Of a stretch of DNA of 64,000 bases, positions 1 to 30,200 are shown in pieces; position 1 is the stretch's first letter; every line of letters begins with the position of its first letter. Made by a program: the position numbers and the translations under genes. The DNA lies in assembly GCA_040954595.2 (NCBI GenBank), contig CM082591.2:1463745-1527744 (forward strand), given 5' to 3'. The stretch is from Balanoglossus misakiensis (Eukaryota > Animalia > Hemichordata). The notes under the pieces are model-generated. The model searched no databases and had not been told where the DNA came from. It was given only the letters and a program-made list of their open reading frames with translations.

Positions 1-1287
1 TAGAACGACTTTGTTGGCATATATGTACCAGTGAATATAAGCGACGACCTGACCCGCAGCAATATTGACTTGTAATTTATCGTAAACAAACAATCGTATG
101 CGCAGCGCCTGATCCGCTCGGAATGAATACATGCCATATTAACATAAACAAAATCTAGGCATTATGACTTACCTGCCACAAGATGCGATTCCAGGAGAAG
201 AACGGCAAATGTCGCGTAAACTACAGCTCTCTTCATGGCTCATGTTGTTTGTGAAAGGCGAAATCGCCATGTTTTTGTACAAAATTGACCTCTTCAACGT
301 GACCTCGTATGACCCCCTAAGTGTTTGTTCTTATATGCAATCGGACTCTCTAGCTGTGCTCACCAAAAACGCATAGTCTCAAATCTTTTCCGGGTCACAC
401 AACTTGATAGACACATGCATTTTCCATCATTACAGTTGAAAATTATCGCACAGCAAATAACGTAGAACGCCTAATTTTCTTTTTTGACATTTCAAGTGTT
501 CAAATCCGAAGTAGCAATTAACTCTTTGTGTAGTCCAATAAACCTCGACCAGGCCTACGCACAACCAAGGCCACCTCTGGTAATTGGACCAATGTCATTA
601 TAGACATCCAATTTAAATCGCCTAACAATCATCACAGTTGCCATGGATACATAGAAGTCACAATGAGCTGTCTACTCATCACATCTGCAGGGCGAATTGA
701 CTCATAATTGACGTCAAACGAAGATTTACCCAACAACAATTCCGCTGTTAAATCGTTAGTGATATCTTTTGATGAAGATCTGATCGAACTTGACCCATTT
801 CACGGTGTTCATGAACTTCGCGTGCAGAACACAGTCGCTGTTTCACTTATAAGGTGCGCGTTACGACATGTAGGCCTACTGTATACTGAACACATACCAA
901 CAAAAGTACCAGTTTTTGCAAACTTTCTCGTAATTGGAATTCTGGCTACAGATTAAAACGCAGTGCGTGTGACTTTTGCTCCTGTATGCTTCTTATCATT
1001 GACCCAGATCAACCGCAGATAGGAAAATGCAATATTTCTTTCACGTTTATGGCACATAACCTGTAGTGACCGGCAAATGTACATAAATACCGCAATTTCG
1101 TTAACGTTCGTTGTGTAAATGAGCGTACTTAAACTGTAGATGAACGACTATTTTTTACCGTTGTCACGTGAACTACAGATCGCAGCACCTCCTGTCAATC
1201 ATAAAACCCGGGCGTGCGCACTTATGTAGATGGTATTGCAACCGAACGCACAGACTTGTGAACACCGTGGGCAAAGAAACTGCTATC

Positions 1288-4200
1288 ATGGACAGCAGAT
1301 GTACTGACGAACTGATATTCTTCGTGAATGGTCGTAAGGTAAGCTCTTTATCAGGGAAATCTCTGTTAAAGGAAAATTAGCTGTAACTTTTGGGCTATGT
1401 GTTCCAGTCAGTATATACTGTGTGTCTTAATGCCCTATATAAAACATGCTAAAATGCACAACATTCTACTTGTCAATACAACTTCTATATGTTTAATAAC
1501 CATTGTTATTATTGACAACTGATATCTAGTCCGGACTTGAATTCAATTTTAAACCATAGGAATGCTGACATACAGGTATAGGATGCGAGATAAGCTACTG
1601 GATGTATCATCGCGCTGAAGCGATTCAAACTAAAAAACTGCAGTAGACGCCGCACAAAACTACATTAGACTACTGGATGACTGAAACGTACTTGCTGAAA
1701 TATGTTCAATGACCGGTTGTTACAGCTCAACTCACATGTATACAGTGAGAATACCAGTGTGTACTAACCAAAGATAAAATGATAGAAGTATCTATTTATT
1801 TTTTATACGTTTTCGTGGAGTGTCAGATTGCCCCTGGCAAGAGCCCTTGGTAAGCAAGCAGAGGCCACGAATACGTCCTTCACCCAGCTTATCGCCAAGT
1901 GGAGCACCATGACCCTCGAGACCAGTTTGTTAGGGAAGAACAATTTAATTGGGGGTGGGGGATGTCTAATAAAATAAAACTACGATTTCGTTTTTCACAG
2001 GTCCAGGAGAGACGACCCCGACCTCGGCAGACTCTGCTCAGCTATCTCAGAGATAAATGTATACTTTTATATGTTACACACAGACAAATGTGAAGTTTTA
2101 TATTCTGAGAAATCGATCTAATCGGCAGATATACGTCTTAATTCACTTCCTCCCTTTATAAAGGAGAATTGCATAAACATGGCTGCCATATCTGTGAAAG
2201 GAAACCTTGCTCCAAATAATCTGCCTTTAAGAGTGAAGTGAACAAGATCTTAGAAGGCAAACGTTTACAGCGAACAGTCTTCTCCTTAACAAACACCTTT
2301 CCTCCAGTAAATCTGAAAGGGACCAAGTTGTCCTGTGGTGAAGGTGGATGTGGGGCGTGTACAGTGATGATATCAAGAGTGGACCCTGTCACCGATAAGA
2401 TACGGTATATAGATCATATTCATTATTCGTTTACCATAAATCTTTCTACCTTAATTTGATCCCAACCTATATATAGATGGTAACAACTGGTATACCATAT
2501 GTTTGTCTTTTTAGTCACAGCTGCGTGTACGCATGCCTGGTGCCGATATGCTCAATCCACGGAATGGCCGTTACAACCATAGAAGGCATTGGAAGTGTAC
2601 GAGACAGACTGCATCCTGTTCAGGTAACAAACAAACAAACAAACAAACAAACTAGATGGAAGTAATTTGTGGCCATATCCCGACGCCTTTTATTGCATCT
2701 TATTCTTTGAAACAATTTGCTCCTACAGGATTGCCTCGTCCGTAACCATGGTATTCAGTGTGGCGTTTGCACACCTGGTATGGTGATGACAATGTATACG
2801 TTGCTACGCAACAATCCGGAACCAACGAAGGAAGAAATCCTGATGTCGCTAGAGGGGGTTATTTGTCGGTGCACAGGATACGCGCCGATCTTGAAAGGAT
2901 TTAACAGCTTTAGTAAGGTGAGGTTTTCAAGCGTTACACGTGACATCTGATTTTGACAAAGAGCACATGCATATATATATTCGCAGTTTCATAATCCGAA
3001 GAGATCATAATCAGTCATATGTACCATTCCTCTAAACTACATTTAATCTATTCTGTTGTGACGTGTCATTTAATTATTACTAGGATCAGAATTCTGGATG
3101 CTGCAGCCAACTCGGCAAGGGTAAATGCTGCATGTCAACTCAGTATCGTGACGTCACAGAATTGGAAAATGGCGGCTCAGAATGTCCACAACTGTCTCAG
3201 GTTGATGAGTTAAATGATGACGAGGTCAAGATGATTGGAAAAGAAACAACATCCGAAAGAAGAAATGAAACACAGGAACTGATATTTCCTCCAGAATTAC
3301 TTGTAAGTTTAAAATTCGCACGAACAAAGTTAAAGGCACAAAGTCGTTTGGCATAACTTTTACCCTGAAAGAATTTTCAAAATCTATCTATGACATTGCA
3401 TCATCAGGTCAACCAATCATACAACAAGAAGATGGTGACGTTTGCTGACGACAACATCACGTGGTTTCGACCGACCACGTTGGAAACTTTATTGGAACTC
3501 CGCCAGAAACACCACGACGCAACCATAGTAGCCGGATATAACGACATTGGTGAGACAAATTGAATACTAGTATACATGAAGCATGACTACCCGCGTGTAC
3601 CATCTAATGGTCACGCCAGCGACAGTAAAAGCCAACAAAAACATTCTAACAAAACATTGATCTGGTTTTAAAGTGTTCCTTCTGAATTCCTTTTCAGGTC
3701 TGGACGTGTTGTTAAACCATACTACACATAGTATAATGATCAGCTTGTCTCAGGTTCGAGAATTGAACGAGATCTCGAATGATGACAACAGTGTTACCTT
3801 TGGAAGTGCTGTCACATTGAGTAGAATGATTGAGTATTTGAATGAATTAGTGGGTCACCTACCAGGTGAGTGTAAAACACTATCACATTTTTGAATCACG
3901 TCGTATTATTACAAATTTAGGCAATACAATGTATAGAATTTCCTAATGTATACATTTCATGGTAATACTCCATTACAGATGAAGAAACGAGACTTTTCAG
4001 AGGCGTCCTGGAAATGTTGACGAGTATTGGTGGTGTACATACAAGAAACACTGCAGTAAGTATGGCTGGCTGTCTCTGACTGACTGACTGATTGATTGAT
4101 TGATTGATTGATTATATGTTTATTGATTATATGTTTATCATTTGCAGACGCTTGGCGGCCATATTGTATCCGCAGCAGAGTCGGATGTCGTTCCGCTGCT

Positions 4201-7200
4201 TATTGTCGCCGGATGTGACGTCACTATTTTTGGACGGAACGGGGAAAGCAAGATGAAAATGAAAGATTTCATATCGCACTCAAAGGACCCTGGTCTAAAC
4301 AGCGATGAAATACTTACGTACATCACTCTCCCAAAGTCTTCTAAGGTAACATTTTATTTAATATATTCGCTTTTCGACTATCAACCACGCATAATAATTA
4401 CAACGACATTTGCTATGTCATACACAGGGTGAACATTTCTTCGGTTACCGAACATATGTGCCACATCGTCGTGCCTCGAGAGATGACGTTATTAACGCGG
4501 GAATGATGGTGAACTTTCATGTTGGTACAAATGTTGTACAAGAATTCGTCGTCTGTTTCGGTGGTATTACAAAGACAGCTGTTATTATCGAAAGTGTGAC
4601 CAGTTTGGCCAAAGATAGGTACGTAGTAAGACTTATTGCGAATTACCCCGACCACGCCTAAAATGTTATCAAAATTTAAATTAAGCTTTCGGTGACTTCC
4701 ATCATTTCATGTTTGCCCTTTCAGAACATGGGACGACAGTCTCTTTCAAGACCTGCTCTCCCTGGTTAAAACTGAAGTCGAGACGTCTACATACAAACAA
4801 ACCATGATGAAAAGCTTCCTTCTGAAGTTTTTCTCTGCAGTGGACGAAGACAGGGAAATGAAAACGAAGACAGTGAATATGCGTGATCGTCCGATATTCG
4901 TAGAGACTGACACATGTGCACAGCTTCAGGTAGTCATTTGGCCTTAAAGATCACCTCACAAGAATTCACATCATAAACGTGTTTCTCATCTCTCCTTTGT
5001 CAGCTGTAGTTCCCAGTCATGTGGGAAGCACCAACATGCTTTGTATAATTATGTGGTTTATGCTTTCAACTCAGGCAAGTCCATTTGGAGGAGTTGGTGA
5101 TCCCTTGCAACATGTATCTTCCCAACAACTAGCCACCGGAGAGGCTGTCTTTCTGGATGATATTCCACCAAGATCAGGTAATTGAGGTTTTCAAATGCAC
5201 ATCGGTATAACCTATAGCCTTAAAGACATAATATAACGCTGTGTATAGATAGATCTGACGAACGACCTTTCGAGAATGACCACGTGCATGCAGCTTGTCC
5301 AATCGGAGCTTGATGTCTGTTTGTTCTGTTTCCTCCACAGATGAACTGGCTTTGTGCCTCGTGACCAGCAAGAAAGCCCACGCCAAGATCAAGTAACTTG
5401 TTTCTATTTGCACATTCCTAGTATCTTTTGTCCAGATTAGGTTTAAACACGTGTTTACTGTCACCTACAGCTTACATATATGCCCATATATGGGCAAAGG
5501 ACATGTCTAAGTCTTTGAATGACCACACGATGTAATGGCTCGATAACGTTTCGGTATGCATATAATGTTCATATAATGTTCACGTTTCATGGCTCAGGCG
5601 GGTTTTATGGAATGAAATAATGACTGTGTATATTATTACCATAAAGGTCAATAATTGCTGACGACGCATTGGCTTTAGAGGGCGTCCTGTGTCTGGTCGA
5701 CGCCAACGATGTTCCAAAAATCAATATCATGAGCCGCCGTTTTCCAGATGAAGAAATTTTTGCTTCCAATGAGGTATGAGAATTTGGACAATATTCTCTA
5801 TGGTCTTGCTGAACATGGAACCGAAAGCAATTGACCTACACGTTTACTATGAATCATAACATTGCAACATGGTTATTTATGGTTGCAGGTAAACTGTGTT
5901 GGTCAGGCAATAGCAGCCATAGTCGCAGAGACTAACGAAATTGCTTGTCAAGCAGCAAGATTAGTCAAGATAGAATATGAAGAACTCGAAGCCATCTTTA
6001 CTATTGAGGTATACTCGCAATTGTGTATTGTTTTCTGTTCTGTGTCCGTTTTCACAGAAAATAAGAAAGTATGGAAAGGAACATCACAGGAAGTCCAGTA
6101 GTCTAGTAACCAGACACAAAACGAGGCTATAAAGATGGCCGCGGTTCTCGCCATATTGATTGTTGTGAACAGGGGGATTCTGGGTATTGCATCATGCTTG
6201 CAAGACGCCCACGTGTCTATTGATGATTCATAATCTATAAATTTAATCTACCTTCAAACCAGGAGGCTATCGAGAGAGAGTCATACTTGAAACCACTGCA
6301 TGAACTCAATCATGGCCCCAGTCTTGAGGCAGCATTTGCGTTATCAGACCATATCACTGAGGGAGAAGTTAGACTTGGTGGACAGGAACACTTCTACATG
6401 GAAACACATCGTTGCATAGCGATTCCAGATTTGGGAGAACAAAGTATGGAAATCATATCCTCTACACAGAATCAGACTCACCTGCAGGTATTTGGAAGTT
6501 TCAAACTTAGGGGATTTTTTTGTCATTTGGCCCACATGAAGCATTTTGATGGAACTTGGTATAAATGCTGCTCTCAGATGGTTGTGTGATGTTCAGAATA
6601 CTGGTTACTATCAAACACACGTCCATAACCTTTCCAGAGCACACGCGAACCAGTGACTGAGATCACACCAACGCTAACCATGCCAAAATTTCTGCAATTA
6701 TACAAATTAAAGACTGTTTGTTAACAGATGGCTATTTCTGATGCACTGGGATATCCTGCAAACAAAGTCAAGTGCAAAATAGCGCGAATTGGTGGCGGAT
6801 TTGGTGGGAAAGAATCACGATCGGTGGTTGTGGCAGCTCCATGCGCAGTAGCAGCCCATAAGTAAGTGATAATTTAAGTTTCTTAAAGTTCTTACAAGCC
6901 TAAAACCACATTGCAGCCATCTTGGCAACTGCATGCTGGGAAAATATGTCAAAGGACTCTAACTTGCCCTTGAATAACCTCCATCTGATTACGCATGTTC
7001 AGATTATAGTTTCAGACAGTTTTACGATACTCTGCATGCGATTTGCCTATAAAAGCTTGCAAGTCTGGCGTATCTTTCCAGAACAAGGAGGCCTGTCAGG
7101 TGTGTTTTGGACCGGGACACTGACATGAAAATCAGCGGAAGCAGACACCCTGTTCTCGGCAGGTATAAAGTGGGATTCTCTAAATCTGGGCACCTGATGG

Positions 7201-10039
7201 CGCTCGACGTGGACATTTTCTACAATGCAGGACATTCTGCTGATCTGTCACATGATGTAAGTAAATAATGGACAATCCTTAATTACAGAAATTCCTGTTG
7301 ATAATTTGGTATTCACCCTAACGAACGAGTGTTATATTCTATTCAAAGATTGTTACTTATGGCATGCTGGATGCGACCAACGTTTACAATGTTCCAAGTG
7401 CAAGGGTCAGAGGTTATGCCTGCAAGACCAATCTGCCTTCGAATACGGCGATGAGAGGATTTGGCAGACCACAGTCCATGATGATATGCGAAAATATTAT
7501 AGGCAAAGTCGCCATTACTTGCGGACTATCAGAAAACGAGGTATGGAAACAATTGAGAAACTATGAAAATTTAAATTTCTTGTTTTCGAGTGATAATATA
7601 TACACAGAGAGACAGACAGAAATACTCATATGAACATGTATATTTTTTTCTTCTTTCGATGACCACTTATATAAATACAACAAGGTGCGAGAAGCGAATT
7701 TTTTACCCGAGAATGTGTTAACCATATTTGGACAAACGCTAGAAAGCCAGAAGATAAACGAATGCTGGGAAACATGTAAAGCCAACTCTGATTTTGCCAA
7801 AAGATTGCATGAAGTTGAAGAATTTAACAGGTAAAACTTTTTTTCTTTTTTTTTCATAATTGCTTCTAAGTTAATACGAACTTGTACATATGCCTGTTTC
7901 TCTATGGAGCACACCTGTCTTTATCTTAAACACTCTCACTTGCTGTTATCTATGCACCAACTGGACTAGGTTGCTGATGCTTTGTGAAATGACCTGCACT
8001 GACGACACATGCATCATTCTGTTCCACAGGAAAAACAAGTGGCGAAAGAGGGGAATTGCAATGGTACCGACCAAACTGGGAATTGGGTTTGGATGCAAAT
8101 CAATGGGCCAGGTAAATATAAACAATCATGGAGGGTTCCTTGACAAATAACGACAAAATACATGTGTGTAATGAATATGATAGAGAGAGAGAGAGTTCTG
8201 ATGATAGCAACGGCGTGAAACTCGGAGTCACAACTAAGATTTAATACTAAATTCTTTGTTGGCCTTGTAATTAACACTGTGATAGCCTCACTGAAATGGT
8301 TCTCAATATCTACATGTATTTGTAGGCGAGCGCTTTGGTCAATGTTTACACCGATGGTTCGGTTCTGCTCACACACGGTGGGATAGAAATGGGTCAAGGG
8401 TTGCACACCAAGATGATCCAGATTGCCAGCACTGTACTTGACATCCCGGTCGACAGAATTCACATCTCAGACACGTGCACAGCGACAATTCCAAACGCGG
8501 TACCAACTGCTGCCAGTTGCGGGACCGATCTCAATGGAATGGCTGTCAAAGTAAGATATAAACTTGTGTTGCCTTGAGAGAAATAGGCCTTTTAATGTTA
8601 AAGTTAAGAATGTGATTTCTGATGTACGTTCTAACATTCCTACACTTTCGTTCATCTAACTTTACCCGCGAATTTTTATCCTTAAGAATGCCTGTGAAGA
8701 AATCAGAAGAAGACTAGAACCTTTCAAGAAAAGTGACCCAAAAGGAACATGGAAGAATTGGGTGAGTCTTTAACCCGTTCACCCCGATTTCCATCATTAG
8801 CGGTCCACCTGTACCATAGAAAACAATGGACTATGTAAGATATCGAATGAGAGGACGCCGCCATGTTGAAAGGTCATGCCCCGAGAATGACTCCCTATCT
8901 TCGCCATTTTATGATACCTCAATATCTGTTCTCTGTTTTTGTCAGGTCAAATCAGCATTTTCAAACTTGGTTAGTCTGTCTGCTGCTGGTTATTATGGGT
9001 AAGTTGAAGGCTTCTTTTCTTTCTAACAAAATTGCATCCGTTGCCATCTCGTGACCGGAAGTGCGATATTTTAGCAATTGATCATTTTGCTCTATTAATG
9101 AACAAAACGCCGTCAATCATTATGGCGACCTATATGACTGGAGAATTGGTCACAGAAACGCCAGTGTTCTTTTTGTTTCAAAGAGACAACGAAATCCATT
9201 TCAACATGAGGACAAAGAAAGGAAATCCTTACAAATATTACACATATGGTGCTGGCTGTTCCGAAGTGGAGATCGATTGTTTGACAGGGGAACATCAAGT
9301 TATCCGTACAGACATCGTTATGGATCTGGGTCGATCGATCAACCCTGCCATCGATACTGGACAGGTAAACGTTATCATTGTGGGTGAACACGAATATTCA
9401 TCATCAGAAAAGTCCCATTATGTATTGCCTTCACTCCTTGTCATCGTTATTGCTGAAGCAATTGCATCTTTTGACAACAAGTATGATGTGCCAATTATAA
9501 ATTTACATTTTGTCCAGATTCATGGTGCTTTCTTGCAAGGCTATGGTCTGTTCATGATGGAAGAACTTCAGTGGTCGGAACGAGGGGAATTATTGACCTG
9601 TGGTCCGGGCATGTACAATCTACCACGTGTACATGATATCCCAAGACAGTTTCACGTTCACCTCTTGGAAAATTCTGAAAATCCAAAGGCCGTCTTTTCT
9701 TCCAAGGTAAATGATCTATCTCTTTGATCTATTTTCCTGATGTTTCTTTATAAAAGAATGATCCTCCCAATAATATATCAAGACATATGACCTCACTTGT
9801 GACCTCTCTCTCTCCCTCCCCCACAGGGTGTAGGCGAACCGCCTCTCTTTCTTGCTGCATCGGTATTCTTTGCTGTCAAAGAAGCCATACGTTCAGCTCG
9901 AAGTGATTCTGGCCTAGAAGATACTGACTTCAAGCTGGACTGCCCCGCAACAGCCCGGAAAATTCGACTTATGTGTGGAAACGACTTTACTTTGGATGAG
10001 GCTAGAATACGATCATGTAAAAATAAACTTACCACATAA
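1288..10039 (+). CDS. Xanthine dehydrogenase/aldehyde oxidase family molybdo-flavoenzyme (28 coding exons), AOX-like divergent paralog
   Basis: GT-AG exons join in frame without stops. First exons: 1288-1338 ([17 protein letters not shown]), 2001-2058, 2308-2404, 2515-2623, 2729-2917; last exon 9827-10039 (TAA). 2Fe-2S motifs [35 protein letters not shown]; linker [10 protein letters not shown]; Mo-domain motifs [56 protein letters not shown]. Confidence 0.95.
2059..2307 (+). other. U12-type (minor spliceosome) GT-AG intron 2 of the XDH/AOX gene
   Basis: 5' site GTATACTTTT (consensus RTATCCTTT, one mismatch). Branch sequence TCTCCTTAAC at 2281-2290, about 17 nt before the AG. Phase-1 position just before the [10 protein letters not shown] motif, where XDH/AOX genes are known to carry a U12 intron. 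Confidence 0.75.
2626..2652. repeat. (AAAC)n microsatellite in XDH/AOX intron 4
   Basis: aacaaacaaacaaacaaacaaacaaac read directly. Confidence 0.85.
4076..4137. repeat. (TGAC)n/(TGAT)n microsatellite plus short duplication in XDH/AOX intron 9
   Basis: ctgactgactgactgattgattgattgattgattgatt followed by repeated gattatatgttt. Confidence 0.8.
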
Positions 10040-10869
10040 CCAAGGTTAAACTTGCCTGGAATTCTTTCTTGAATCTGTGCTTGCAAAACGTGAACAGATT
10101 CACCTTCCAACAACTGTCAGTTGTCACATGTACTGATGTCAGCGATGAAGGTCAGCATGAGGCCGCGCCGTCCACGTGTTATGTCGTCCAGTCATGTTCC
10201 CAGCGCATGTTACAACACGTGTGCTCCAAACATTTCGCGAAACACGGTGAACGAAACTTGGAGTTTGTTTCAAAACTGCACATTCAAAGGTACGATAAAT
10301 ATTCGAATCGTCCGTAAATAGTTCAAGATTCGGGAAGCAAAATATCCGTTCAGTCTCGGCGTACCTGAAGACATGCATGCGAGCACAGTCACCTCTCTCA
10401 ACTGTGGAAGTGTTGACACCGTTCTTGTTATTTAAATGTTATATAATTACTTGTAAGGTCGTGTATTTGCATATAACTGTTTTGAAATACATTGTAAATT
10501 TTAACTGTGCACATGAAAATCACTTCTTTGTTTGTGTAATGACTATCCAACGGGTATTTATGCGATCGAATGAAAATATTGAATTTTTCAGGACCCCTAC
10601 AAGCATATAAGGTATGGAGGAAAACAAGCAGATATTCACTTTAAAATCTCAGGCTGATATCGAAACTTTATTACACATTTTGATTGATGCAAAATACATT
10701 TTTTTGGGTTGATACCGTATCCTGCCCAGATGCATTGTGAGTTGAAACATCTGTACTTTTCCTTTTTCTTGCATAACGGTTCACTGCTCTCTAATAAAGG
10801 TACAAGTCTACACAGGTCTGCCAGGTAATGGTGCAATGAAACATTATCTCCTCGTCAGTCTTGTCCAAA

Positions 10870-10934
10870 CCTTGGTTCAAGAGTATCAGATACAATGTGT
10901 TTACTTTGTCAATGTATCATCATGACAACCAAGA
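10870..10934 (-). promoter_or_regulatory. Eukaryotic SECIS element in the 3' UTR of the deiodinase-like gene
   Basis: Minus strand reads UCUUGGUU-GUC-AUGA-UGAUACAUUGAC-AAA-GUAAACA-CAUUGUAUC-UGAU-ACUCUUG-AACCAAGG. Pattern AUGA-N12-AAA...UGA, helix II GAUACAUUG/CAUUGUAUC (8 of 9 paired), helix I UCUUGGUU/AACCAAGG. About 200 nt after the stop codon. Confidence 0.88.
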
Positions 10935-11135
10935 ACTTCGTGACCAAGATACTGCGTGAAGGTTTATGTCAAATGTTTTTTTTCTGTCATTTTGATTAGT
11001 ATTTCATAACTTTCTTCGCAAATAAATCTCGGTGCAACTTGCGTTACTTACTTATTTGTCATTCTTGGACAAGAGTATTCGACGGATTCAATTAGTTGTA
11101 TATCTGGAACTTCCTAAACACTGCACTATAGATGT

Positions 11136-12705
11136 CTAACCTTTGGCGGGAAAACGACCTTCCAACCACTCTCTCAAAGAATCGGTCATTAACTTGTACG
11201 GGTTCTCGCACTGTGCCCTTATGATGTCACCAATGTACGCCATTTTGTCATCCTCGATGACAAAGGCACGGTCGGGTTGCCCAGCATAAGTTTCAGCGAA
11301 AACATTCTCCATTGTGTCTGCTACGATTCGCACCTGATTTGCATTTTCGGTGTCGGTCGTAAAAGTTTGAAATCGACTATCGGCTTCCATCAATCGCCTA
11401 TACACAGAAATAGAGTTCCTTAATTAGCATGCGCAATGACCCCAATTTAAAGGAATTTGTTGTACTTGACCAAACACCATGCCAACCTCCTGTTCCTGTA
11501 TTCAGACCAACAAGACAGTTCTGAAATAGCTGGTGGATGGGCCCAGTAGTCACTGAATTTCAAATTTGAAACAGAGCAATCAATGATAAATCCACAAACC
11601 TGGCAGCGGCGATCCTCTCGTCCATATTTTTGTGTTGGTAATAGGAACTGTAGTGCGCCCCCAGTGGCCAACCTTCGCGCGGGTGGGCTTCAAGAACATA
11701 GATGTAGAGGAAGTCTGCCAATTCTTTGTAGTCACTGTGCAACGATGACAGAGAGCCACTATGAACAATGGCCTGGAATGAAGAAAAAAAAACACTTCAT
11801 CGTCTCCCCGCTATGAAATAATCCCGAAATACAGATGTAGTTCCAATAATATTCACATGTATACGATAAGACCCAGTTAATTGACAAGACTTACCCGCAG
11901 CGGAGGTCAGGACATCGATCCTGACAATATCACGAGGGGACGATCTTTGTGAATGTGCAATTTCGACAAAGAAATGGTTTCCTTGGTATCTATAGCAACG
12001 AGGTCAACATTGGGTCTGTTGTCTCCTACTTTCAGGTCACCAATCCAGTTCCTCGATCCTTCCGAGGCTAAAAATGACATCAAGTCCAAAACCTATTAGA
12101 AAGAGTATAGACCATGTTGCAAAAGTTCAGAAACAGAGACAAAATTTATAGTGAGTGGAGTTTCTTGGCAGTAGACTCACCGGACCAGGCTCTTTGGGGC
12201 AATCATGGTCGCCGCCATGATTGTTTTGTAAGGATGAGCGCGCGGTGAATTGTGGGATTTGTTGCTAAACAAAGAGGGCGCTGACATGACCCTCCAACCC
12301 CCCCCCCCCCGGGACGTGACCACACCTGCCCTTTAACAGACATGTAATGTGTGTATGTGTTATCACTGCACGTGATGGAATATGCCTCCTTGTTTGGGGT
12401 CACAGGTACCAATGGTCTAATTTATGATGTTGAAATCTCACCTCTTTATCGTTACCATGGTATTTTCTCACCAGTGCAGATAGGCGGCCCGGGAGTTTGT
12501 CGGGATCAACACCATTGTCCCTGAGAGCGATTCTCGCTGATTCATCAATAATTCCTTCCAAGACTGCAACCAACTTAGACGGATCTGTTTTGTTGGGGTC
12601 CATTCTCTGGTCGTATTTCTGCATGGTAGACTCGGCGTACATGACTTCTTTGAAACGTGACAATATTCTCATCACTAGATCCCTGTCCTCCATGAATGAC
12701 GCCAT
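11136..12705 (-). CDS. Iodothyronine deiodinase-like selenoprotein, 298 aa, 4 exons, in-frame UGA = Sec
   Basis: Exons 12705-12442, 12092-11895, 11772-11600, 11397-11136 with canonical splice sites and consistent phases. Motifs LKVGDNRPNV, RPLVILSGSMS-U-PPL (DIO FGSCTUPPF), DFLYIYVLEAHPREGW, QHKNMDERIAAAR, VADTMEN, YAGQPDRAFVI, LREWLE. TGA at 11909-11907; SECIS downstream; good start context aagATGG. Confidence 0.92.
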
Positions 12706-14122
12706 CTTGAATGAATAGGTTTCAGCGGTTTCAGTTACCTATCAGTAATGATACAGTTTGTCTTTTGAGTGACTTGTGACGGTATTAAGTGTATCCACTT
12801 TAATAGATTACGTATTTACACGGGTCAAAGGTTATCAAGTCAACATTCGCACGTGTCTATGTTGGAAACAGGGCAAAAGATTGTCTACAGTTCTTTTTAA
12901 ACAGTTCAGCGATGCATTTGAAGTTACCAACAGCATTGAATATCTTATAGGCCTACATGTTATTTTTGCAACTCATACAAAATCGCAAATTTGGCGACAT
13001 ACTCTGTCATTAAATTTTCAGAGCAATCTTCAATTTGGGCGACGACTCATAACTGATACTCTTAAAAAACGAACATGACTGAAACTGACCACAAATAGAA
13101 TTACGGACACTGCACTATAATTCTAATCCCATGCATCAGCTTTTAAGCCGGCGTAATATTAGTTCACGCCACTTCAATAGTTCTCAACAGCCCGCCAAGA
13201 AGTTAATATGTCACCTAATTTGGTCACATGACAGCAATTTACGCGGCCATATTATTTTCAGTTCATGGGCACTATGACTGGTACATGAATAGTGGGAAAC
13301 AGTTTTAGACAAACGTCTGGTAATGTTTGGCGACTGAATTTTACAGAATTGAGATAGTCAAGGTGAGTCAGAAATGTTCATATTTACAGGGACGCTACCT
13401 ATAGACAACCCCATATATATGTACACGTTCGCAAACATTGTATTGACTCCTGTGAAAAAAAAGTTACTCTAAGACTCGTCACTTTAGTGCCCACTGGACT
13501 TTTCCTTCGCCTCTGCAGACATATAACAGCTCATTCATTTGTAAATATTCGAATTCATCCATAACTGTCCCTAATTAGCAGTTCAAAATGTCAACCCTTT
13601 CATATCTACGCGATAAGACAAATCCCACTGTGCGTGTCAACTCGAATATTTGGTTACTATATTTTTGCATACCGTACATTCAGACGTTGTCGAGCACATA
13701 CCTTGCAAATATTATCTGCATATACCTTTCAGCAAAAAGATGAGCATAGAAAATGTCCCCTGGAAAGTGATCGAAGGGTATTTTTTGTAGTTTTCGAGGC
13801 GAGGCTTCAGGTCAACAGGTGTCAATGACACTATGCAAATATAGCACCAACGCGGTTACCACGAAGTAGTGTTGAGATAATGGTTATTTATAAATCTAGC
13901 GTATTGACATTCCCACATCTCAGTTTGAATACATTAATGTCAATTTTTTCGCCACTTGTTGAATATTGATATCGATTTTGTAATAATTGGTCACATAAAA
14001 ATCATGATATCCGTTCTTCTGGGCGTGAATTTTAATATATTTTACTGCATTTGAAGTACATGTAATTCTTCAAAAGAATTTATCATATTTATGACAGAAG
14101 GCAGTACAAGTAACCTAAAAGT
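12706..14122. promoter_or_regulatory. Probable shared divergent promoter region of the deiodinase-like gene (-) and the CACHD1-like gene (+), with a likely 5' UTR intron of the latter
   Basis: Start codons are head-to-head 1.4 kb apart. Strong donor aag|gtgagt near 13362 and acceptor gacag near 14097, upstream of the ATG at 14123. Confidence 0.45.
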
Positions 14123-22011: not shown

Positions 22012-25000
22012 ACAAAGATGTCCCGATAGTCTTTCTTGCCGGTTCCACAATGCATTGCGCGATAATCTTCACCTAGTGTAGACGCAAACGACACCCAGGG
22101 CGCCCTCAAGTTCTTTTTCTCATAGAGTACTTCCAGAAAGTGATGTGATGTCATATTGATCACACCCGACCCACTGCCAAGTAAAATTAACGGGTCCTAA
22201 CGGAAGTCTCAGTAGAAACGAACTCGAGCCATTCGCAAACAGGTATCCTGCAAATGGTCTTTTGCCAAGGTCACTGAACAAGTTTATAAACCGTGTCGTC
22301 TTAATTAAGTGTATTTGGTGTACATTTTTCTAGCTTATCAAGTTAGTGAGAACTGTTATTGGATGAGACGATAGCTAGATGGTTAGTTATTATAGTCACT
22401 CGGTAGCATACGAACGTCATAAAATCGTACAAGGGATGACCAAAATGGCGACCGTCGTAAACATACACAAGTTATGTCCTTTGAACGTGATACCAGCACC
22501 CGTACTATCACACAAAGTACAGAACGGATAGTTTAACTCAAAAACTGCATTTCATGGTTCACAGACCTCACACACGTATTTAGATAACTTTCAAATAATT
22601 TAACCGAAATTTATGAAGGCTACGCGAACTACGACGTTATTAGGAAACCTGTTTCCCCTTCTTCAAAACATTCCCGCTGTGGTCATTCGGCGGCTTGTGT
22701 CACAGACGTGCCGAATACAATCTCGGTTGTTCAAATGACTAGATTCTGCTGTCTCTATGGCAACAGGTTTGTCGTAAAACAAATGAACGTTGTTGTCTGA
22801 GTATATGACGTAGGTAACACTTCATAATTCGCGTGCTCTTCGTACAGTAGGCAGTCGTTATTACGTCATAGCCATCATGGTTATACACCATCATAGTGTT
22901 GTTACGTGAAGAGTCGATAAATCCCCTCTTTATTCGCCAAACGTCTTCAAGTTGTGCTCAGCCATAACAAATCTCCAGGTTTTGTCGGCTGGTCGCACCA
23001 TTAACCGCTGAAAGCCCGCGAATGGTCTGAAGAGCATGTAGTCTGGTCATTGCGTCACGCACGAACAGTCGCAGGCAAATTTTATGACGCCATTTTGTTT
23101 CGATCTTGTGTTGCATGCCAACAAATCTTGGGCTAACATTTTCCTTAAATTTTTTGTTCAACTTTCACTGCACTGTCTTGGTTAAATCTGGACTGGTCAA
23201 ATCTCGCTTCTTTGGAGATTTGTGGCATCACACACTTGCAGTCGTCACCTAGAAGTACAAGCACAGCATATGTTTAATAATAATGACTGAATATTTGACC
23301 TTCACCTGATCGTTTCCTCACCACGTGCAGAACATGAAACATTTAAAGGAAGGGTTACTTACACCAATAAAAATAAATAAAATGACTCCAACACTACAAA
23401 CAAATTTTGCTGAAGTCAATATAACAACAATTAATTACAAGTAGGTATGATTTATCCCCATGTAACTTTTTATTGACAGTTGCCGTTATCACCGTATAAA
23501 TTCAACTAAAAGAGATAAATTATCGTTTTAATTGAGTTCACCGAAGGGTGGTTTAATCAGTCTTTCTGATATCGCCTGTGCATGTGTGTGTTGACCTGGG
23601 CGGAGGGGAATTTCAGGACAAGTTGATGATTCCTGAGGCCCTGTACAGACACACCCGCCATCACCGTTGCTTCTACGCCCACGATGGCTGCAGTAACTCA
23701 CAACACGAGGTGCAAGTCACATGTGTAAAATATAAATAACATTAAATTAAACTCTTTCAGCTTACGTCACTACGTTTTAAGGTTAGTGTCACCATTACCT
23801 AAGGGAAATGCTTGCGTTCTCTGTCACGGGAATCTCGCCATCGAAGGGGGTATGGAATCGAACACATCAGTTATGGCCGCTCATAAAACAAAAGAATTGC
23901 ACCTCTTCGAAGTCCATATTGTTTAACACTTGTCTAGAGTTGTTGAAAATGTCGTTAATTAAACAGACCAGCACTTAAAACCACAGAGGGGGTTAAGTAA
24001 AGGCCAGAACTCATGCACATTAAGGAATCTTTTACAACGTAAAACATTCATCGAGTTTGTTTTTCGATGATTCGTGACAGTCGGGGTCAAAGGTGACCAG
24101 CCTGTATTTTCTCTGAAAATGAATCGGATCATCTGATTGGTCGCGGAGGTAAACAACAAATTTGATATTCCAGAGACTATAATGGCGGCAAATTGCCAGG
24201 TCATAGTAAACGTGCATGTATAGCCCCAGGTCGACCGTAACTGACATCAACTGTATGTATGTCAGTAACCATCAAAAATTATTGTTTTACTCTTTGTATG
24301 CCGTAACTTTACCAAGCTTCAAATCGGAGAATAAACTGTTCAAAATCGTTTTGAAACTTATCTGTGGTTCGTCCACTAGTGCTATGTCTTAAGTCGACTG
24401 ACACAAATTCGTGAGAGCGGGTGGGGTTGAGCGAAGCCTTGTGAAATTACCTACACGTGGGGTGCAATAAAACCGCCATGGGTTCCAGAGAAAATGCAAT
24501 CCCTTTACCTTCCCGATGGTCACCGGGAGGAATCTACATCCCCCACACGAGTGTATCCACCAAACTCTCGTTAAATACACACCGTCTAAGAAAACATATC
24601 ATAATTCATATTACAAATGTCCAGTTTTATGACGGCCATGTTGGTTTTTGGTGTAAGTGGAACTTCGAGGGTGAGATAAACATCTCCTGCCAACAGTACC
24701 ACCCTCGGGCTGCTGTGCCCAACTCAGAGTTTGAGTTGCAACGATATTTCAGGAAAATGGCATTTATTGGTTCTGTCACGTGTTCCTGTAACTACCAGCA
24801 TCGTTTTAAACCATACTCATCCAAACCGAAAGGATTATGAACTGCAAGAGTCACCAAACACATGTCTCTGCATAGAAAACACATCGCATAATCAACATCA
24901 TGATTGGTACTCAGATTCTGTGCCTCTGGTCACAATGAATCATTCTGAAAATAAAGTACGAAGGCCAAAAGTATCGGCTAGACTTTGACGTCATATAGTT

Positions 25001-25599
25001 CACTTCCAATTAAAGTCATCTCCGATCAGAAAATCTCGGAATACAAGTAATTCTTTCTAATCTGTGGAGAGGTACGTATAGCCTCGAGCTGGGGAATATT
25101 GATGGAGCTAGGGCAACCTTGAGGTCACCGGGTCAACTCCTTCTTGTCTAACTAGATATGTCCTTAAACTTACATGTCTGTCTCGGCGCTCGATGTCGTC
25201 TCTCCTATCCCTTTCCATACTTTCCGGAACTGAAAAAACAAATACACAACGATCGAGGTAAACACTTGCCAGAACTGTTTGGCTGTTTGTCATGTCTAAC
25301 GCGTATTCCTCGCGTTGTTTACTCATTGTTGGTGTTCAGCTATGCACACATTCTTAATTTCTCTGTCCAAACTTGGCCAATTAATAGTTGGCCTTACAAA
25401 ATAATGTGACCAGAATTTAAGGTCACGCAGAGGTCATGCTTCTTAGATCTCGAATAATTCTTTATCACAGCAAAATTAAACTAACACTCTGTGGTTTTCA
25501 CATTAAGGAAGTCACATTAAGGAAGTGATAATGTGTTTTCGGTACGATAAACCCTTTTCTGGGTGTTCCGTTTACAAGGCAACGAAGAAATATCGTGTC

Positions 25600-27250
25600 G
25601 TTCGGAAGTGCGGCTTTCAAACAACAAGCACATTATTATTGGTCGATGGTAATAACTTCTTCGGTAGCAGAGTTGTCAAACGGCATCGTTCGTGTCGTTT
25701 GCTCGTAACGTCGATGAGTGGCGTAAACATGCATTGGGGCACGTGGCCAACACAACATTTAAGTTGAAACCGACGTTATACGCTGATCGATGTATACGCC
25801 GAACAGCTCATAAATAATCGCACGATGGGCCTGTAGTGACAATTTTGAGGTCGGTACGAAGTAGTTCTGGCTGAACCTGTCAGGGCTAAAACGCCAACCG
25901 GCTAGATCTACGTAAATTTATCGGGCGGGCGTGATAACGCATGGATTACATAGTTGCCAGGCATGGTCGTGGAATTGTAGACGTCGCGACGTCTCAGTCT
26001 TGCGAAGTAAACGCTACGATTCGGCACGACAACATGGTTTTATTCCAGAACACTGAAATACGAGTAGTAAATCTTTACAGCCTTAATATGAGTCGTGCGG
26101 TCCGGCTACAGTGCAAAATTACAATTTTGACGATACCAATAGAGGGCGCACTATGAAAGCTTTAAATTGACGGATTTGACGTATCCGTGCTCACTATCGA
26201 CTCGGTTTCCTTTCGGATTGATACGAGGGGCGTCGCTGGTTTCATGCTGACTGCATGCGCAAGACAAACTCATCAGTTGTGAATGCTTCTTGTCCATTCA
26301 GCGTCGTTGAGCCGAAACGTGGCAAGCGCCCGGGGGAAAGCGAACCACTGGAGATCAACAAAAGACGAACAAAGGATTTTACAAATCGTTCGGCTGGTGA
26401 TATTTTATCTCGGAGAACTAGCAGCCAGTGCGCAAAAGCTTCTGAAGTAGTCAGGGAGATCTGAGAGAAAGCGCGTCAGGAACCTGTTCGTGGTCGTTGC
26501 CATGGGTAAATCGGAGAAAAGAGAAACGGGCGAAACGGCTTGGTGTTGCAAGTACACGATACGAGTCTACAGTCTCTTGATGGTGGTAAGTTGGTGATTT
26601 TTTGCGTGTTCGCTTCAAAACTGATAATCAAATGTGTGAACAACGATAACTTCGGAGTTGTGACTCGGTGATTATGACGGTTTGATTTCGCCGACGCGGA
26701 CGCGCGCGTGATGAGCGCAACCAGGTCAAAGCATCCATCCTCCAATTTTCGAAGCGTTAACCTGTTATCTCGTTGTGGATAGAAGAAGAAAAAGCGATTT
26801 ATAGGTCACGGTGTTATCCATCCGCAATTTTGAATTAACGCTGGGGTGACTGAACCAGGTACTGGCTCGTTGCCGAGCGTCAGCGCGTTCTGTCTTCGAA
26901 TTCTGCCTGAACGTTTTAATAGCTTTTACAAGTGCCCTCTCTGACAAAGAGCGTCTGTCATCACAGTATCACCTGCGACTGCGTCACATCACGCGCATCT
27001 GCAGGTAAATTTGTCAATCTTCGCGCGGTATTGGGGGAGAAACGTGCTCCTAATGTGTGGTCCCTTGCCTTTACCGACGATTTTGTAAAGACACCGGCGT
27101 TTTTGAAGAGCTTACGGCATTCAGAGAGTCACGGATGACGTGCCAGATGGCCCCCGTATGCAGATTTGGACACCCGGGCAATTGACACATTACACACACA
27201 GTCAGAGACGCGGTTATGGTTCGCGTTCAATATTGTTGCCCTCAGATCAC
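25600..27250. promoter_or_regulatory. CpG-rich, promoter-like region (possible distal promoter of the + strand tetraspanin and/or a divergent transcript)
   Basis: Visibly CpG-rich compared with the CpG-poor 37-64 kb region. CTCF-like CCAATAGAGGGCGC at about 26136; donor-like cag|gtaaat near 27004; no credible ORF. Confidence 0.35.
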
Positions 27251-30200
27251 ACGCACAGCAATAACGGTGTGTTATCCGTAATATAACCCGACATTTGAAT
27301 AAATGATAAAAGCATGGCGCTGGCCAAGCGATACAGCAATCTAAGTAGGTAGGGTGTTTAAAATGCAACAAAATGCTTCAATAAAAGATAAAAATAATCA
27401 TTTAATAAAATTTACGTCTTTGTCGTTATAGTAAACCTAACCGCGTAGACAGACATTAATATTCACGCCACGTTCGCTACGCATCATTGTACTATTATAC
27501 ATCAATTGTGCTCAATATTGATTTTTTAAGACTGGATTTTGCCGATATTGATGTCAATTGTTAATGTTATGAGAATGTTACAAGAGTTTTACATGCGGAA
27601 ATAATATATTTTTCTTTTTAAATTGATGTAATTTAAAACGTGATCAATATCATGATCTACGTTCAGTTTGACTGTTCCACGCCGATATTCGAACAATATA
27701 ATAAAATTACTGGTGTCTACAATAGGACATACCATTAATTCAGAGGGGTGTCAAGCACATTGGAATTGGTGGTGATCAGGTATTGCCAACAGACTCAGTC
27801 ATTTAGCCGTACACCACTGAATAAATCATACATATTTGATTTTGTGAATAAACAAATTTCACGGTACCACTGACACGTGTAAACATTTTTCATGTTTTGT
27901 TTATGAGTACGAGTCATTCATAGAAAAGGGGCCGACCATTGGTTTTCGACGTGGGTGGATTGAGGATATAAAAGGCACCATGATGTATATTTGTTGGTTG
28001 GTTGTTTACTTGCACCATCTAGACCCTACTGCCCTTGATGCAGTTATATCTTTCAATCGCATTGCAAATGACTACCTGCCGGGCCCAATCGACCATAGCT
28101 CCGGGCTGCATTTGGTTTATTGACATTCAATTTCGCGTTATCTCATCATATATATACACCTAGCCTCATCTAACATTTCGCATGTCTCTACATGGGAATA
28201 ATCATATTAGACTATTATAGGCCTATAGACGCCATACTTATTTTGGACAAAAACCTCTCAGCCTTTTCCATCGTTCGTTTGCGTTCTCACTCGTTAGGTG
28301 ATCGCTCTGTGACCGATATTTTATTCTAGATGCGGTAAAACCAGACACACAGCGCCTTTTTGACTGATGGTAATGTACACACAATCTTAGAACCACTAGG
28401 AACCTTCAGGGAATGTTCACAGCTGTGCCCTTATGGCAATATGGCGGCCCTTTTGATTCTGCTGAATGGCGCAGCGCATGCGCGCATGCAATGGCCAATT
28501 TGAGTTTTGAGTTATGCTTGCAGAGCTGCAATTGAAGGCGCGGGATAATGATGAATGACCTGGAGTAGAAAATTGGCCTTTTACTAGGAATTTCGTCACA
28601 GTCGGCTCCATTTATAGGCTTCACACAGTTATACTAAAACGATGACGTCAGTAATAGAAGTTGACATTAAAAGTAATCACAGACTCTGTTCATGTATTAC
28701 TCCGCCAGATGTCTGCCAATCAGTGGTGTCATATAGAGCGTTTCAAAAACAAAGTGCCAACTATTGTCAATTCAGATAAACATTTCCAAAGTCACAACTG
28801 ATACAGTAACTTATTATGTGTTAATTTATAATCAACACAAGCGCTGTAAGTTCAAAATCGGATAAACTGTTTATCGTTTGTATTGACGTGCAAAGCAAAA
28901 GGGCATCACCTTTCAAGAATTGTTGTCGCAATAATAGCATTTGCAGTAAACATTATCGTCATAAAAAACTACTGTTCCAGTACTTTCTCCACTGTAAATA
29001 TGGAGTCTTTCACAAATCGTCTACATAAGTCGCAATTACTTTCATTATCGCCTGTCCAATAGCCAACATTTGCATCTTCTGTATATATATTTACACTTCG
29101 TATAATAAGGTATTCGACTCGTCCGTTAAACAAACCACTCTAAAAATAAACATCCTTTCACTTACAGATGTAATGTCCCGTTTAAGCTGTTAGTCAATCA
29201 TGGATATTGAGACTGGGTGTCACACAGGTCAGATAATCCAAGTTGAAATGGTAACAATTTTTCTGAAGGTGCTTCCCTTCAAGACAAGTGAAACTCTCTA
29301 ACAAATTACATCTGACTCAACAAAAAGTTACAAGAAGATTGTTTTCACGTGGTTTCCATGGACAGAGGAGGTAAACTCTAGTTGCCAGGCAACACTCAAA
29401 GATCATCTGGGGTAATATTTGCTCAACTCGTTTCTTCAAATTCAGTTATTTGTAAAAGTGGAATATATACTCGACTACTTGGGTTCGTCCATAGAGACGG
29501 GGATGTTAAACATTCAAGCACAACAAGAAATTGTCTGTCATTTCCCTCTGCAGTGACGTCATTCTGTGTTCAGTGACCCGGATGTAACCCTTCCACGAAC
29601 ACAGTGCCGTCCTGTGACTGGATAAACACGCTGATCAATTAGAGTTAATTAATTCATCACTTCATAATCGCTTGTAAAGTGATGTAATAATAAACATCGA
29701 TTTCCGAGGAACAGACGACTACACAAACATGTTCCCCGTCGACAAACAAAATCTGATCCGACTTATTTCGTTGCGTAATCTTCGCATTAGTAAGTCAGAT
29801 GGCGCATCCATGGGCCCTGGTGTCAATGGCACGGCCTGAAATCACGGGTTAGACAGCTAAGAAGAGTCTAGGTGGTTGAATGATGGAGTTTTCTCTTGAT
29901 TAATGACAATCAGTCGACAGAAAGTCATATGTCATGCGCCTCTCGTGTTTTAAAAGTCTCGCGAGGTCACGCGGGGTTTGCCCTTACTCTGGGGCAACGC
30001 CCTCTCTGGCTTCTGACGACAGAATCCTGTAAAGTTACGACTTCTAGTCACGATTTTTACAAGCAATCGCCGTCAATCAAAGCACTAACCGGCGCCAGTG
30101 TAGTTCCGTCGAGGTTCTAGTAGACGAAACGAGTGCCGTTCTTTCCATCACGGTCAATCTGAGATAAATAGAGATGTCTGCCCAAGCATCGCATGATGAA

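What the first reader, a model, noticed from the sequence alone, without database searches (positions are those of the whole stretch)
1288..12705. Candidate halo-aromatic metabolism gene pair: AOX-like oxidase tail-to-tail with a soluble Sec-dehalogenase
Seen: two enzymes, each diverged from its textbook function, with stop codons only 1.1 kb apart and nuclear-receptor repeats near both 5' ends (DR4 at 300; imperfect DR1 GGGTCA-A-AGGTTA at 12822; imperfect DR4 at 13809). Known: deiodinases reductively dehalogenate aryl halides, AOXs oxidise aromatic aldehydes and N-heterocycles, and many marine invertebrates (e.g. acorn worms) make bromophenols and haloindoles. Inference (speculative): a co-regulated cytosolic route for iodo/bromo-aromatics or thyroid-hormone acetic-acid derivatives.
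Basis: inference. Interest (0 to 1): 0.7.

Follow-up and report, generated by a model that had tools for sequence, protein, structure and literature searches.

The report
Soluble acorn-worm selenium deiodinase beside oxidase
Two intact enzyme genes sit end to end in what is likely an acorn-worm genome, but they are probably chance neighbours; the notable one is a spliced, likely selenium-containing relative of thyroid-hormone deiodinases that has a predicted soluble helical domain where the membrane anchor should be and whose active site is missing from most database models.

Summary
Both genes are real. Gene A (1288-10039, +) has 28 exons and encodes a 1331-aa molybdo-flavoenzyme. It keeps the catalytic Glu, lacks the xanthine-binding Arg and belongs to an acorn-worm clade of XDH paralogues with very variable pockets. 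Gene B (12705-11136, -) has 4 exons and encodes a 298-aa deiodinase-fold protein. It has an in-frame UGA at the catalytic position and a SECIS-like hairpin. One run shows a spliced contig, and 13 of 15 allelic changes are synonymous. A helical domain replaces the membrane anchor. Gene B belongs to a hemichordate-echinoderm subfamily (99/99 support) whose Sec motif is missing from 13 of 14 database models. The shared pathway is not supported. All four genes here lie 1.0-1.4 kb apart. The nuclear-receptor repeats are enriched across the whole window, and both DR4s lie nearer other genes. No further halogen enzyme was found. Relatives carry both families on one chromosome, but their accession numbers are not consecutive. 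Co-expression and substrates are untested. Verdict: probably incidental neighbours; gene B is a new variant of a known family.

The parts
1288..10039 (+). Gene A: 28-exon XDH/AOX-family molybdo-flavoenzyme, 1331 aa; acorn-worm clade of XDH paralogues
6728..6861 (+). Gene A exon 18: Glu806, equivalent to XOR Glu802 (human 803), retained
7349..7540 (+). Gene A exon 20: Tyr884 at the XOR Arg880 / human AOX1 Met889 position; Arg916 and Phe918 retained
9827..10039 (+). Gene A last exon: catalytic Glu1265 (XOR Glu1261) retained; stop codon
12442..12705 (-). Gene B exon 1: 88-aa all-helical N-terminal domain in place of a membrane anchor
   Evidence: donor position set by homologues
11895..12092 (-). 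Gene B exon 2, ending in the catalytic motif S147-M148-S149-U150-P-P-L
11907..11909 (-). In-frame TGA, inferred selenocysteine 150
   Evidence: aligns with Cys of the sea-cucumber homologue, which aligns with the Dio3/Dio2 catalytic residue
11600..11772 (-). Gene B exon 3: Tyr179, Glu182, His184, Trp189, His201 (proton relay and omega loop)
11136..11397 (-). Gene B exon 4 and stop; intron 3 is spliced out in a contig of run X3
10871..10933 (-). SECIS-like hairpin in the 3' UTR of gene B: AUGA/GA core, apical AA, helix I
   Evidence: own scanner; 2 of 1000 shuffles; not hit by Rfam; folding z -0.84
10667..10672 (-). Candidate polyadenylation signal of gene B; a contig of run X3 ends at 10653
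12822..12834 (+). Imperfect DR1, 117 nt upstream of gene B's ATG; one of 19 such sites in the window
286..315 (-). Perfect DR4 plus a third half-site, 63 nt from the ATG of the divergent neighbour gene
13809..13824 (+). Imperfect DR4, 299 nt upstream of the VWA/cache gene

Best explanation
Two intact genes that likely work independently lie tail to tail: a molybdenum hydroxylase that has lost the xanthine-binding arginine and likely oxidises non-purine aldehydes or N-heterocycles, and a spliced deiodinase-fold gene whose UGA is likely read as selenocysteine, giving a predicted cytosolic reductive aryl dehalogenase. Gene B mechanism. Shown: UGA at the catalytic position, proton-relay residues, no hydrophobic anchor, splicing of intron 3, purifying selection. 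Inferred: the 3' UTR hairpin recodes UGA; the selenolate abstracts I+ (or Br+) from a halophenol ring while Ser149-Glu182-His201 delivers a proton; with neither resolving Cys present, an outside thiol would re-reduce the enzyme; the helical N-domain would take over the stabilising or dimerising role of the membrane anchor. Most likely substrates are iodinated or brominated phenolics; which ones is open. Gene A mechanism. Shown: all cofactor domains and the catalytic Glu. Inferred: Mo-OH attack on the substrate, electrons passed through two [2Fe-2S] clusters to FAD and probably to O2, since the NAD-site residues of XDH are altered. The adjacency is most likely a by-product of two expanded families that share an old chromosome.
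For: Gene models intact. Gene B: the P. flava orthologue is annotated in two halves, one ending exactly at the Sec codon; a sea-cucumber homologue has Cys there; its model has pLDDT 92.5 and matches Dio2 and Dio3 first (E 3e-11); SECIS-like hairpin in 1 real UTR against 2 of 1000 shuffles; spliced contig with no intron depth in run X3; 13 of 15 allelic coding changes synonymous; T125S keeps DIO1 active (PMC9141512 passages). Independence: ATG-to-ATG or stop-to-stop gaps of 1051, 1096 and 1418 nt among four successive genes; repeats window-wide; 0 of 114 plus 14 scanned reading frames elsewhere hit a halogen-metabolism family; the R880 column reads Y, E, V, T, I, C, Y in the 7 clade rows; the deiodinase subfamily includes two echinoderms, and no row named as an echinoderm is among the 120 listed oxidase hits.
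Against: Both families lie on a contig of the same length in Ptychodera flava (62,999,500) and in Glandiceps talaboti (23,840,982), which a functional cluster would also predict. A DR1 does lie 117 nt upstream of gene B. Rfam did not hit the hairpin, its folding z-score is only -0.84, and my scanner was written after I had seen it. Run X3 is listed as 'DNA?' and comes from the same sample. Only 120 of 1366 oxidase hits were listed. The AU test does not reject grouping gene A's clade with vertebrate AOX (p 0.149). No activity or substrate was measured.
Confidence: 0.68

Rival explanations
1. One reading: the two genes are a co-regulated cytosolic module; the oxidase would turn a halo-aromatic aldehyde (for example the aldehyde precursor of TRIAC, or a bromo-hydroxybenzaldehyde) into the acid and the selenoenzyme would remove the halogen.
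For: Same chromosome in 2 of 2 relatives with chromosome-scale records. Enteropneusts accumulate halogenated aromatics (PMC6315191 abstract). Amphioxus makes TRIAC and has a TRIAC-specific deiodinase (PMC10083991 passages; PMC8143656 section 5). Both proteins lack targeting or membrane segments as far as examined.
Against: Accessions are not consecutive: nearest gaps 69 (G. talaboti) and 312 (P. flava), and 8483 to the closest P. flava orthologue. Tail-to-tail genes share no promoter, and each is head-to-head with an unrelated gene. The repeats are background. The oxidase pocket is not conserved even in its nearest orthologue (N/V/K against E/Y/F). In search, 0 of 15 listed papers on TRIAC contain 'aldehyde oxidase'.
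Confidence: 0.12
2. Gene B is not a dehalogenase but a peroxiredoxin-like or thiol-redox selenoenzyme on the deiodinase scaffold, as may be true of deiodinase-like proteins in amoebae and bacteria.
For: After Dio2 and Dio3 the fold matches thioredoxin-like proteins and peroxiredoxins. A deiodinase homologue occurs in Dictyostelium, where thyroid hormones are not known (PMC2375036 passage). The Dio3 Phe258 and Arg275 regions are altered and there is a 13-residue insertion.
Against: The deiodinase-specific omega-loop and relay residues (Tyr179, Glu182, His184, Trp189, His201) are kept and nearly invariant in the subfamily. There is no resolving Cys as a peroxidase cycle would usually need (own knowledge).
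Confidence: 0.13
3. The TGA is a true stop or gene B is a decaying pseudogene, and the database models that skip the motif reflect real isoforms.
For: 12 of 14 database models lack the motif and 1 ends at it; Rfam finds no SECIS.
Against: 13 of 15 allelic changes downstream of the TGA are synonymous (naive p 1e-7); the skipped pieces differ from model to model but always remove the same codon; Cys orthologue in sea cucumber; SECIS-like hairpin inside the covered UTR.
Confidence: 0.05

Closest known systems
Vertebrate iodothyronine deiodinases DIO1-3 (PF00837; PDB 4TR3/4TR4, 9H48)
   Same: Thioredoxin fold with the deiodinase insertion, Sec at the catalytic position, S-x-(T/S)-U-P-P motif, Tyr/Glu/His/Trp/His relay, 3' SECIS-like element.
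   Different: No N-terminal transmembrane helix; an all-helical domain of about 90 aa instead. Met and Val replace the proximal and distal Cys. A 13-residue insertion, and a helix where Dio3 has its Arg275 loop. Separate clade (99/99).
Invertebrate deiodinases: ascidian Sec enzyme, amphioxus Cys enzyme specific for TRIAC, and the DI expansions in Trichoplax, Lottia, Capitella and Branchiostoma (PMC8143656, PMC3473315)
   Same: Multi-copy, often tandem deiodinase-like genes in marine invertebrates, in Sec and Cys forms.
   Different: None of the passages read describes a hemichordate enzyme or this N-terminal domain. Whether some genes in PMC3473315 belong to this subfamily is unknown because its supplement could not be read.
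Deiodinase-like selenoproteins of microbial eukaryotes (Dictyostelium DI homologue, PMC2375036)
   Same: Two unnamed proteins (P0217, P0197) carry a related N-terminal helical domain (HHalign probability 94.9) and lack a hydrophobic anchor.
   Different: They fall outside the subfamily in the tree. Their organisms are not given, and I did not compare the Dictyostelium protein itself.
Xanthine dehydrogenase/oxidase (XOR) and vertebrate aldehyde oxidases (AOX1-4)
   Same: Full domain order, Fe-S cysteine motifs, Gln767, Arg912 and Glu1261 equivalents; Glu802 as in XOR; loss of Arg880 and of NAD-site residues as in AOX.
   Different: A mixed pocket (Glu kept, Arg to Tyr, Thr1010 to Gly), an altered FAD motif shared with acorn-worm relatives, and a best tree that places it in an acorn-worm clade apart from both canonical XDH and vertebrate AOX.

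Membership tests
Iodothyronine deiodinase family (PF00837) | Thioredoxin fold with deiodinase insertion | tested here: met
   Pfam on exons 3 and 4; model of the sea-cucumber homologue matches 9h48 and 4tr3 first
Iodothyronine deiodinase family (PF00837) | Sec or Cys at the catalytic position, with UGA and SECIS | tested here: met
   TGA at codon 150 aligns with the catalytic residue; SECIS-like hairpin by own scanner, not by Rfam; recoding itself is inferred
Iodothyronine deiodinase family (PF00837) | Proton-relay residues (DIO1 Ser123, Thr125, Tyr153, Glu156, His174) | tested here: met
   Ser147, Ser149, Tyr179, Glu182, His201; T125S is active in DIO1 (PMC9141512)
Vertebrate-type DIO1/2/3 | N-terminal transmembrane anchor | tested here: not met
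   Maximum KD19 1.08 in the window protein and at most 1.2 in the first 110 residues of 16 homologues
Vertebrate-type DIO1/2/3 | Groups with DIO1/2/3-type sequences | tested here: not met
   25 subfamily rows are one side of a 99/99 branch against 26 others, which include rows I judged DIO1-like and DIO2-like from their motifs
Iodothyronine deiodinase family (PF00837) | Deiodinates iodothyronines; works as a homodimer | not testable with these tools
Xanthine dehydrogenase (XOR) | Two Fe-S domains, FAD and Moco domains, catalytic Glu1261 | tested here: met
Xanthine dehydrogenase (XOR) | Purine-binding Glu802 and Arg880 | tested here: not met
   Glu806 kept, Tyr884 in place of Arg (roles from PMC4334109 passages)
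Xanthine dehydrogenase (XOR) | NAD-site residues (Trp336, Phe337, Asp429 region; labels recalled) | tested here: not met
   Ser360, Ile361, Arg454 at those columns; the Asp429 column lies in a gapped stretch
Vertebrate aldehyde oxidases | Orthology with vertebrate AOX | tested here: inconclusive
   Best trees separate them, but AU p = 0.149 does not reject a joint clade; only 2 partial mammalian AOX rows were used
Vertebrate aldehyde oxidases | Oxidises aldehydes or N-heterocycles with O2, not xanthine with NAD+ | not testable with these tools
   needs enzyme assay
Functional gene cluster (pathway pair) | Adjacency conserved in relatives | tested here: inconclusive
   Same-length contig in 2 of 2 relatives, accessions not consecutive; no eukaryotic genome could be read directly
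Functional gene cluster (pathway pair) | Regulatory elements specific to the two genes | tested here: not met
   Repeats enriched window-wide and both DR4s nearer other genes
Functional gene cluster (pathway pair) | Co-expression and shared substrate | not testable with these tools

The most novel reading that the evidence does not exclude
Acorn worms and echinoderms carry an overlooked, ancient subfamily of soluble selenoenzymes that strip bromine or iodine from their own halophenols and haloindoles, the first dedicated animal aryl debrominases, and in acorn worms they work with a radiation of xanthine-dehydrogenase-derived oxidases on the same chromosome as a halo-aromatic tailoring and detoxifying route.
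Probability: 0.12. Interest if true: 0.75.

Novelty: new variant of a known kind. Interest (0 to 1): 0.36.

Why it matters
All three vertebrate deiodinases are membrane-anchored dimers, which makes the whole enzymes hard to purify. A natural anchor-free subfamily, with a Cys member in a sea cucumber that needs no Sec machinery, would give a directly testable soluble enzyme for structure and mechanism. It is also a concrete candidate for how acorn worms handle the halogenated aromatics they accumulate, and for how thyroid-type signals are cleared outside chordates. Because gene models delete its active site, surveys of the thyroid toolkit built on database proteins may have misread it. The pairing with the oxidase would matter only if microsynteny and chemistry confirmed it.

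Tried and rejected
No whole genome is held, and the genome tools cover prokaryotes only, so microsynteny could not be read; RefSeq accession order was used as a weak proxy (that it is not strictly positional is recalled). No RNA holder was listed by the run search. Gene A exons were never laid, so its expression has no verdict; the lack of X3 cover at 10500-10628 is no evidence. Rfam gave only a chance snoRNA hit. My first exon-1 donor for gene B (12472) was dropped for 12442 after homologues showed the missing residues. A recalled likeness of the N-domain to protein C10 (PF14974) was not confirmed: no Pfam hit, and only an under-the-bar Atlas row with 19% of members. Fold searches with the N-domain model gave nothing clear: no Foldseek match at E 0.001, best VIA Z 5.4 with rmsd 3.7 over 67 residues; this shows neither a new fold nor a known one. 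The absence of allelic changes in the hairpin (0 of 14 UTR differences) is not significant (p about 0.06). The supplement of PMC3473315 could not be read and may hold members of this subfamily. PMC11304627 passages added nothing. Look-ups of earlier findings by place, by sequence and for relatives returned nothing.
Full report
Observation. Gene A runs on the plus strand from 1288 to 10039 in 28 exons with GT-AG introns and gives 1331 aa without an internal stop, with all XDH/AOX domains in order. Gene B runs on the minus strand from 12705 to 11136 in 4 exons and gives 298 aa with one in-frame TGA at 11907-11909. The stops are 1096 nt apart. The best named hits of both genes are Ptychodera flava proteins (73% on gene B exon 4; 62% over gene A), followed by Glandiceps talaboti, so the animal is very likely an acorn worm near the Ptychoderidae (inference).

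Gene B is very likely a selenoprotein. The TGA sits in S-G-S-M-S-[TGA]-P-P-L and aligns with the Cys of a complete sea-cucumber homologue, which in turn aligns with the catalytic residue of mouse Dio3 and Dio2. The closest P. flava gene is annotated in two halves, one ending exactly at this codon (XP_070564186 and XP_070564193). Of 14 database proteins that I picked as carrying the same N-terminal domain (isoforms left out), 12 lack the motif, 1 ends at it and 1 has Cys. The missing piece differs between models but always includes that codon. A hairpin with AUGA/GA core, apical AA and a second helix lies at 10871-10933. My scanner found it once in the UTR, in 2 of 1000 shuffles, and at one other place on the two strands of the window. 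Against this, the scanner was written after I had seen the hairpin, Rfam did not hit it and its folding z-score is -0.84.

Gene B is spliced and conserved. Run X3 (listed as 'DNA?', same sample as X1 and X2) has a contig that joins 11396 to 11599, which is exactly intron 3. It has no depth inside that intron and covers the 3' UTR down to 10653, past the hairpin; X1 and X2 do not show the join. I read X3 as RNA; this is one sample and says nothing on level or tissue. Of 15 allelic coding differences in exons 3-4, 13 are synonymous, against 21% of all possible changes (naive p 1e-7).

Anatomy of gene B. There is no hydrophobic anchor (maximum KD19 1.08). Exon 1 folds as a confident helical domain (pLDDT 92.7). 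The whole sea-cucumber homologue folds at pLDDT 92.5 and matches Dio2 and Dio3 first. The relay residues are present as Ser147, Ser149, Tyr179, Glu182, His184, Trp189 and His201. In DIO1 the Thr-to-Ser change at the Ser149 position keeps activity, and the proximal Cys is needed for reduction by glutathione (PMC9141512, passages). Here that Cys is Met and the distal Cys is Val, so the reductant is open. Vertebrate enzymes need dimers, and a leucine zipper can replace the anchor (PMC11592359, passages and section 15 part 1 of 2). The helical domain could play that part, which is untested. Fish deiodinases have been linked to PBDE debromination (PMC7144113, passages), so bromo-aromatic substrates are chemically plausible but not shown.

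Family of gene B. In a quick tree of 142 of 156 rows it lies in a 31-row group (SH-aLRT 96). In a careful tree of 51 rows that I chose, 25 subfamily rows are one side of a 99/99 branch. Named members come from three acorn worms, a sea cucumber and a sea urchin; the rest are unnamed. Two unnamed outside proteins share the N-domain weakly (HHalign 94.9%; above all 400 shuffles), which hints at an old soluble lineage.

Gene A. Fe-S cysteines, Gln743, Arg916, Phe918 and the catalytic Glu1265 are kept. Glu806 matches XOR Glu802, but Tyr884 replaces Arg880, Gly replaces Thr1010, and the FAD/NAD region is altered. The roles of Glu802, Arg880 and Glu1261 come from PMC4334109 (passages); the other labels are recalled. 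Trees put gene A with P. flava and G. talaboti paralogues (SH-aLRT 100; 100/100), apart from canonical acorn-worm XDH and from two partial mammalian AOX rows. The AU test does not reject joining the clade with vertebrate AOX (p 0.149), so independent origin is preferred, not shown. Pocket residues vary strongly inside the clade, which suits a broad detoxifying radiation better than one fixed partner substrate (inference).

The pair. Four successive genes are packed alike: 1051 nt between the ATG of a divergent signal-peptide gene and gene A, 1096 nt between the stops of A and B, and 1418 nt between the ATGs of B and a VWA/cache gene. Each enzyme thus faces an unrelated gene across its promoter. 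The repeats are real but window-wide: 19 DR1 against 4.15, 8 DR4 against 4.28, and 76 AGGTCA against 30.3. The two DR4s are nearer the outer genes. Only the imperfect DR1 at 12822 is close to gene B. Pfam scans of 14 and 114 reading frames elsewhere in the window (chosen from 920 by length or codon score) found tetraspanin and cache domains and two weak unrelated hits, no halogen enzyme. In favour of linkage, both families share a contig length in P. flava and in G. talaboti. Conserved chromosomes would give this without function (inference), other paralogues lie on other contigs, and accessions are never consecutive (gaps 69, 312 and 8483). In Saccoglossus the one deiodinase hit and three XDH-family hits are on four different scaffolds of a fragmented assembly.

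Literature. Ten searches listed no paper whose title or abstract start describes a hemichordate deiodinase, this subfamily, an acorn-worm AOX clade or such a pair; subscription journals are largely missing. Invertebrate DI expansions and clusters are known (PMC3473315, passages; supplement unreadable and possibly relevant). PMC8699336 (passages) notes that non-vertebrate chordate DIO sequences often lack the N-terminal half and blames annotation in part. PMC9856734 (passages) lists many sea-urchin Dio genes without Sec analysis in the passages seen. PMC8143656 (passages, section 5), PMC10083991, PMC2375036, PMC6315191 and PMC11304627 were seen as passages.

Verdict. Most likely these are two independent enzymes (0.68); the pathway pair gets 0.12. 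Gene B is a new variant of a known family and the part worth following. Interest 0.36.

Noticed in passing
window 176-237 (-): First exon of a divergent gene with a signal-peptide-like reading frame and a GT donor; the perfect DR4 and a third half-site lie 49-78 nt upstream of its ATG.
   Followed up: partly
window 14123 to about 22011 (+): VWA_N/VWA/cache (alpha2delta-like) gene with signal peptide, a membrane helix and a long acidic tail, head-to-head with gene B.
   Followed up: partly
window about 41900-43300 (+) and 51100-53300 (-): Two convergent tetraspanin genes; DR1-type repeats cluster at 42490-42950 and 44576-44627.
   Followed up: partly
window 12181-12218 (-): An ATG in good context followed by a strong GT donor inside intron 1 of gene B, out of frame with exon 2; possibly an alternative first exon, or chance.
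   Followed up: partly
window 10672-10798: A plus-strand polyadenylation hexamer at 10793 lies inside gene B's 3' UTR; if gene A uses it, the two 3' UTRs would overlap by about 150 nt.
   Followed up: no
window about 22100-41800: About 20 kb without a recognisable coding exon in the frames scanned; contains a perfect DR1 (30427) and a perfect DR4 (32165).
   Followed up: partly
window 11026-11112 and 11443-11575: The second haplotype differs by an 85-nt deletion in gene B's 3' UTR and by rearrangements in intron 3; the animal is highly heterozygous.
   Followed up: no
gene B exon 4, residue 274: A Cys in the C-terminal helical insert is shared with XP_077994459 and XP_070564193 but not with all members; it could be a substitute resolving Cys.
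   Followed up: no
P0087 (XP_077986243, G. talaboti): A member of gene A's clade has Gln in place of the catalytic Glu1261 equivalent.
   Followed up: no
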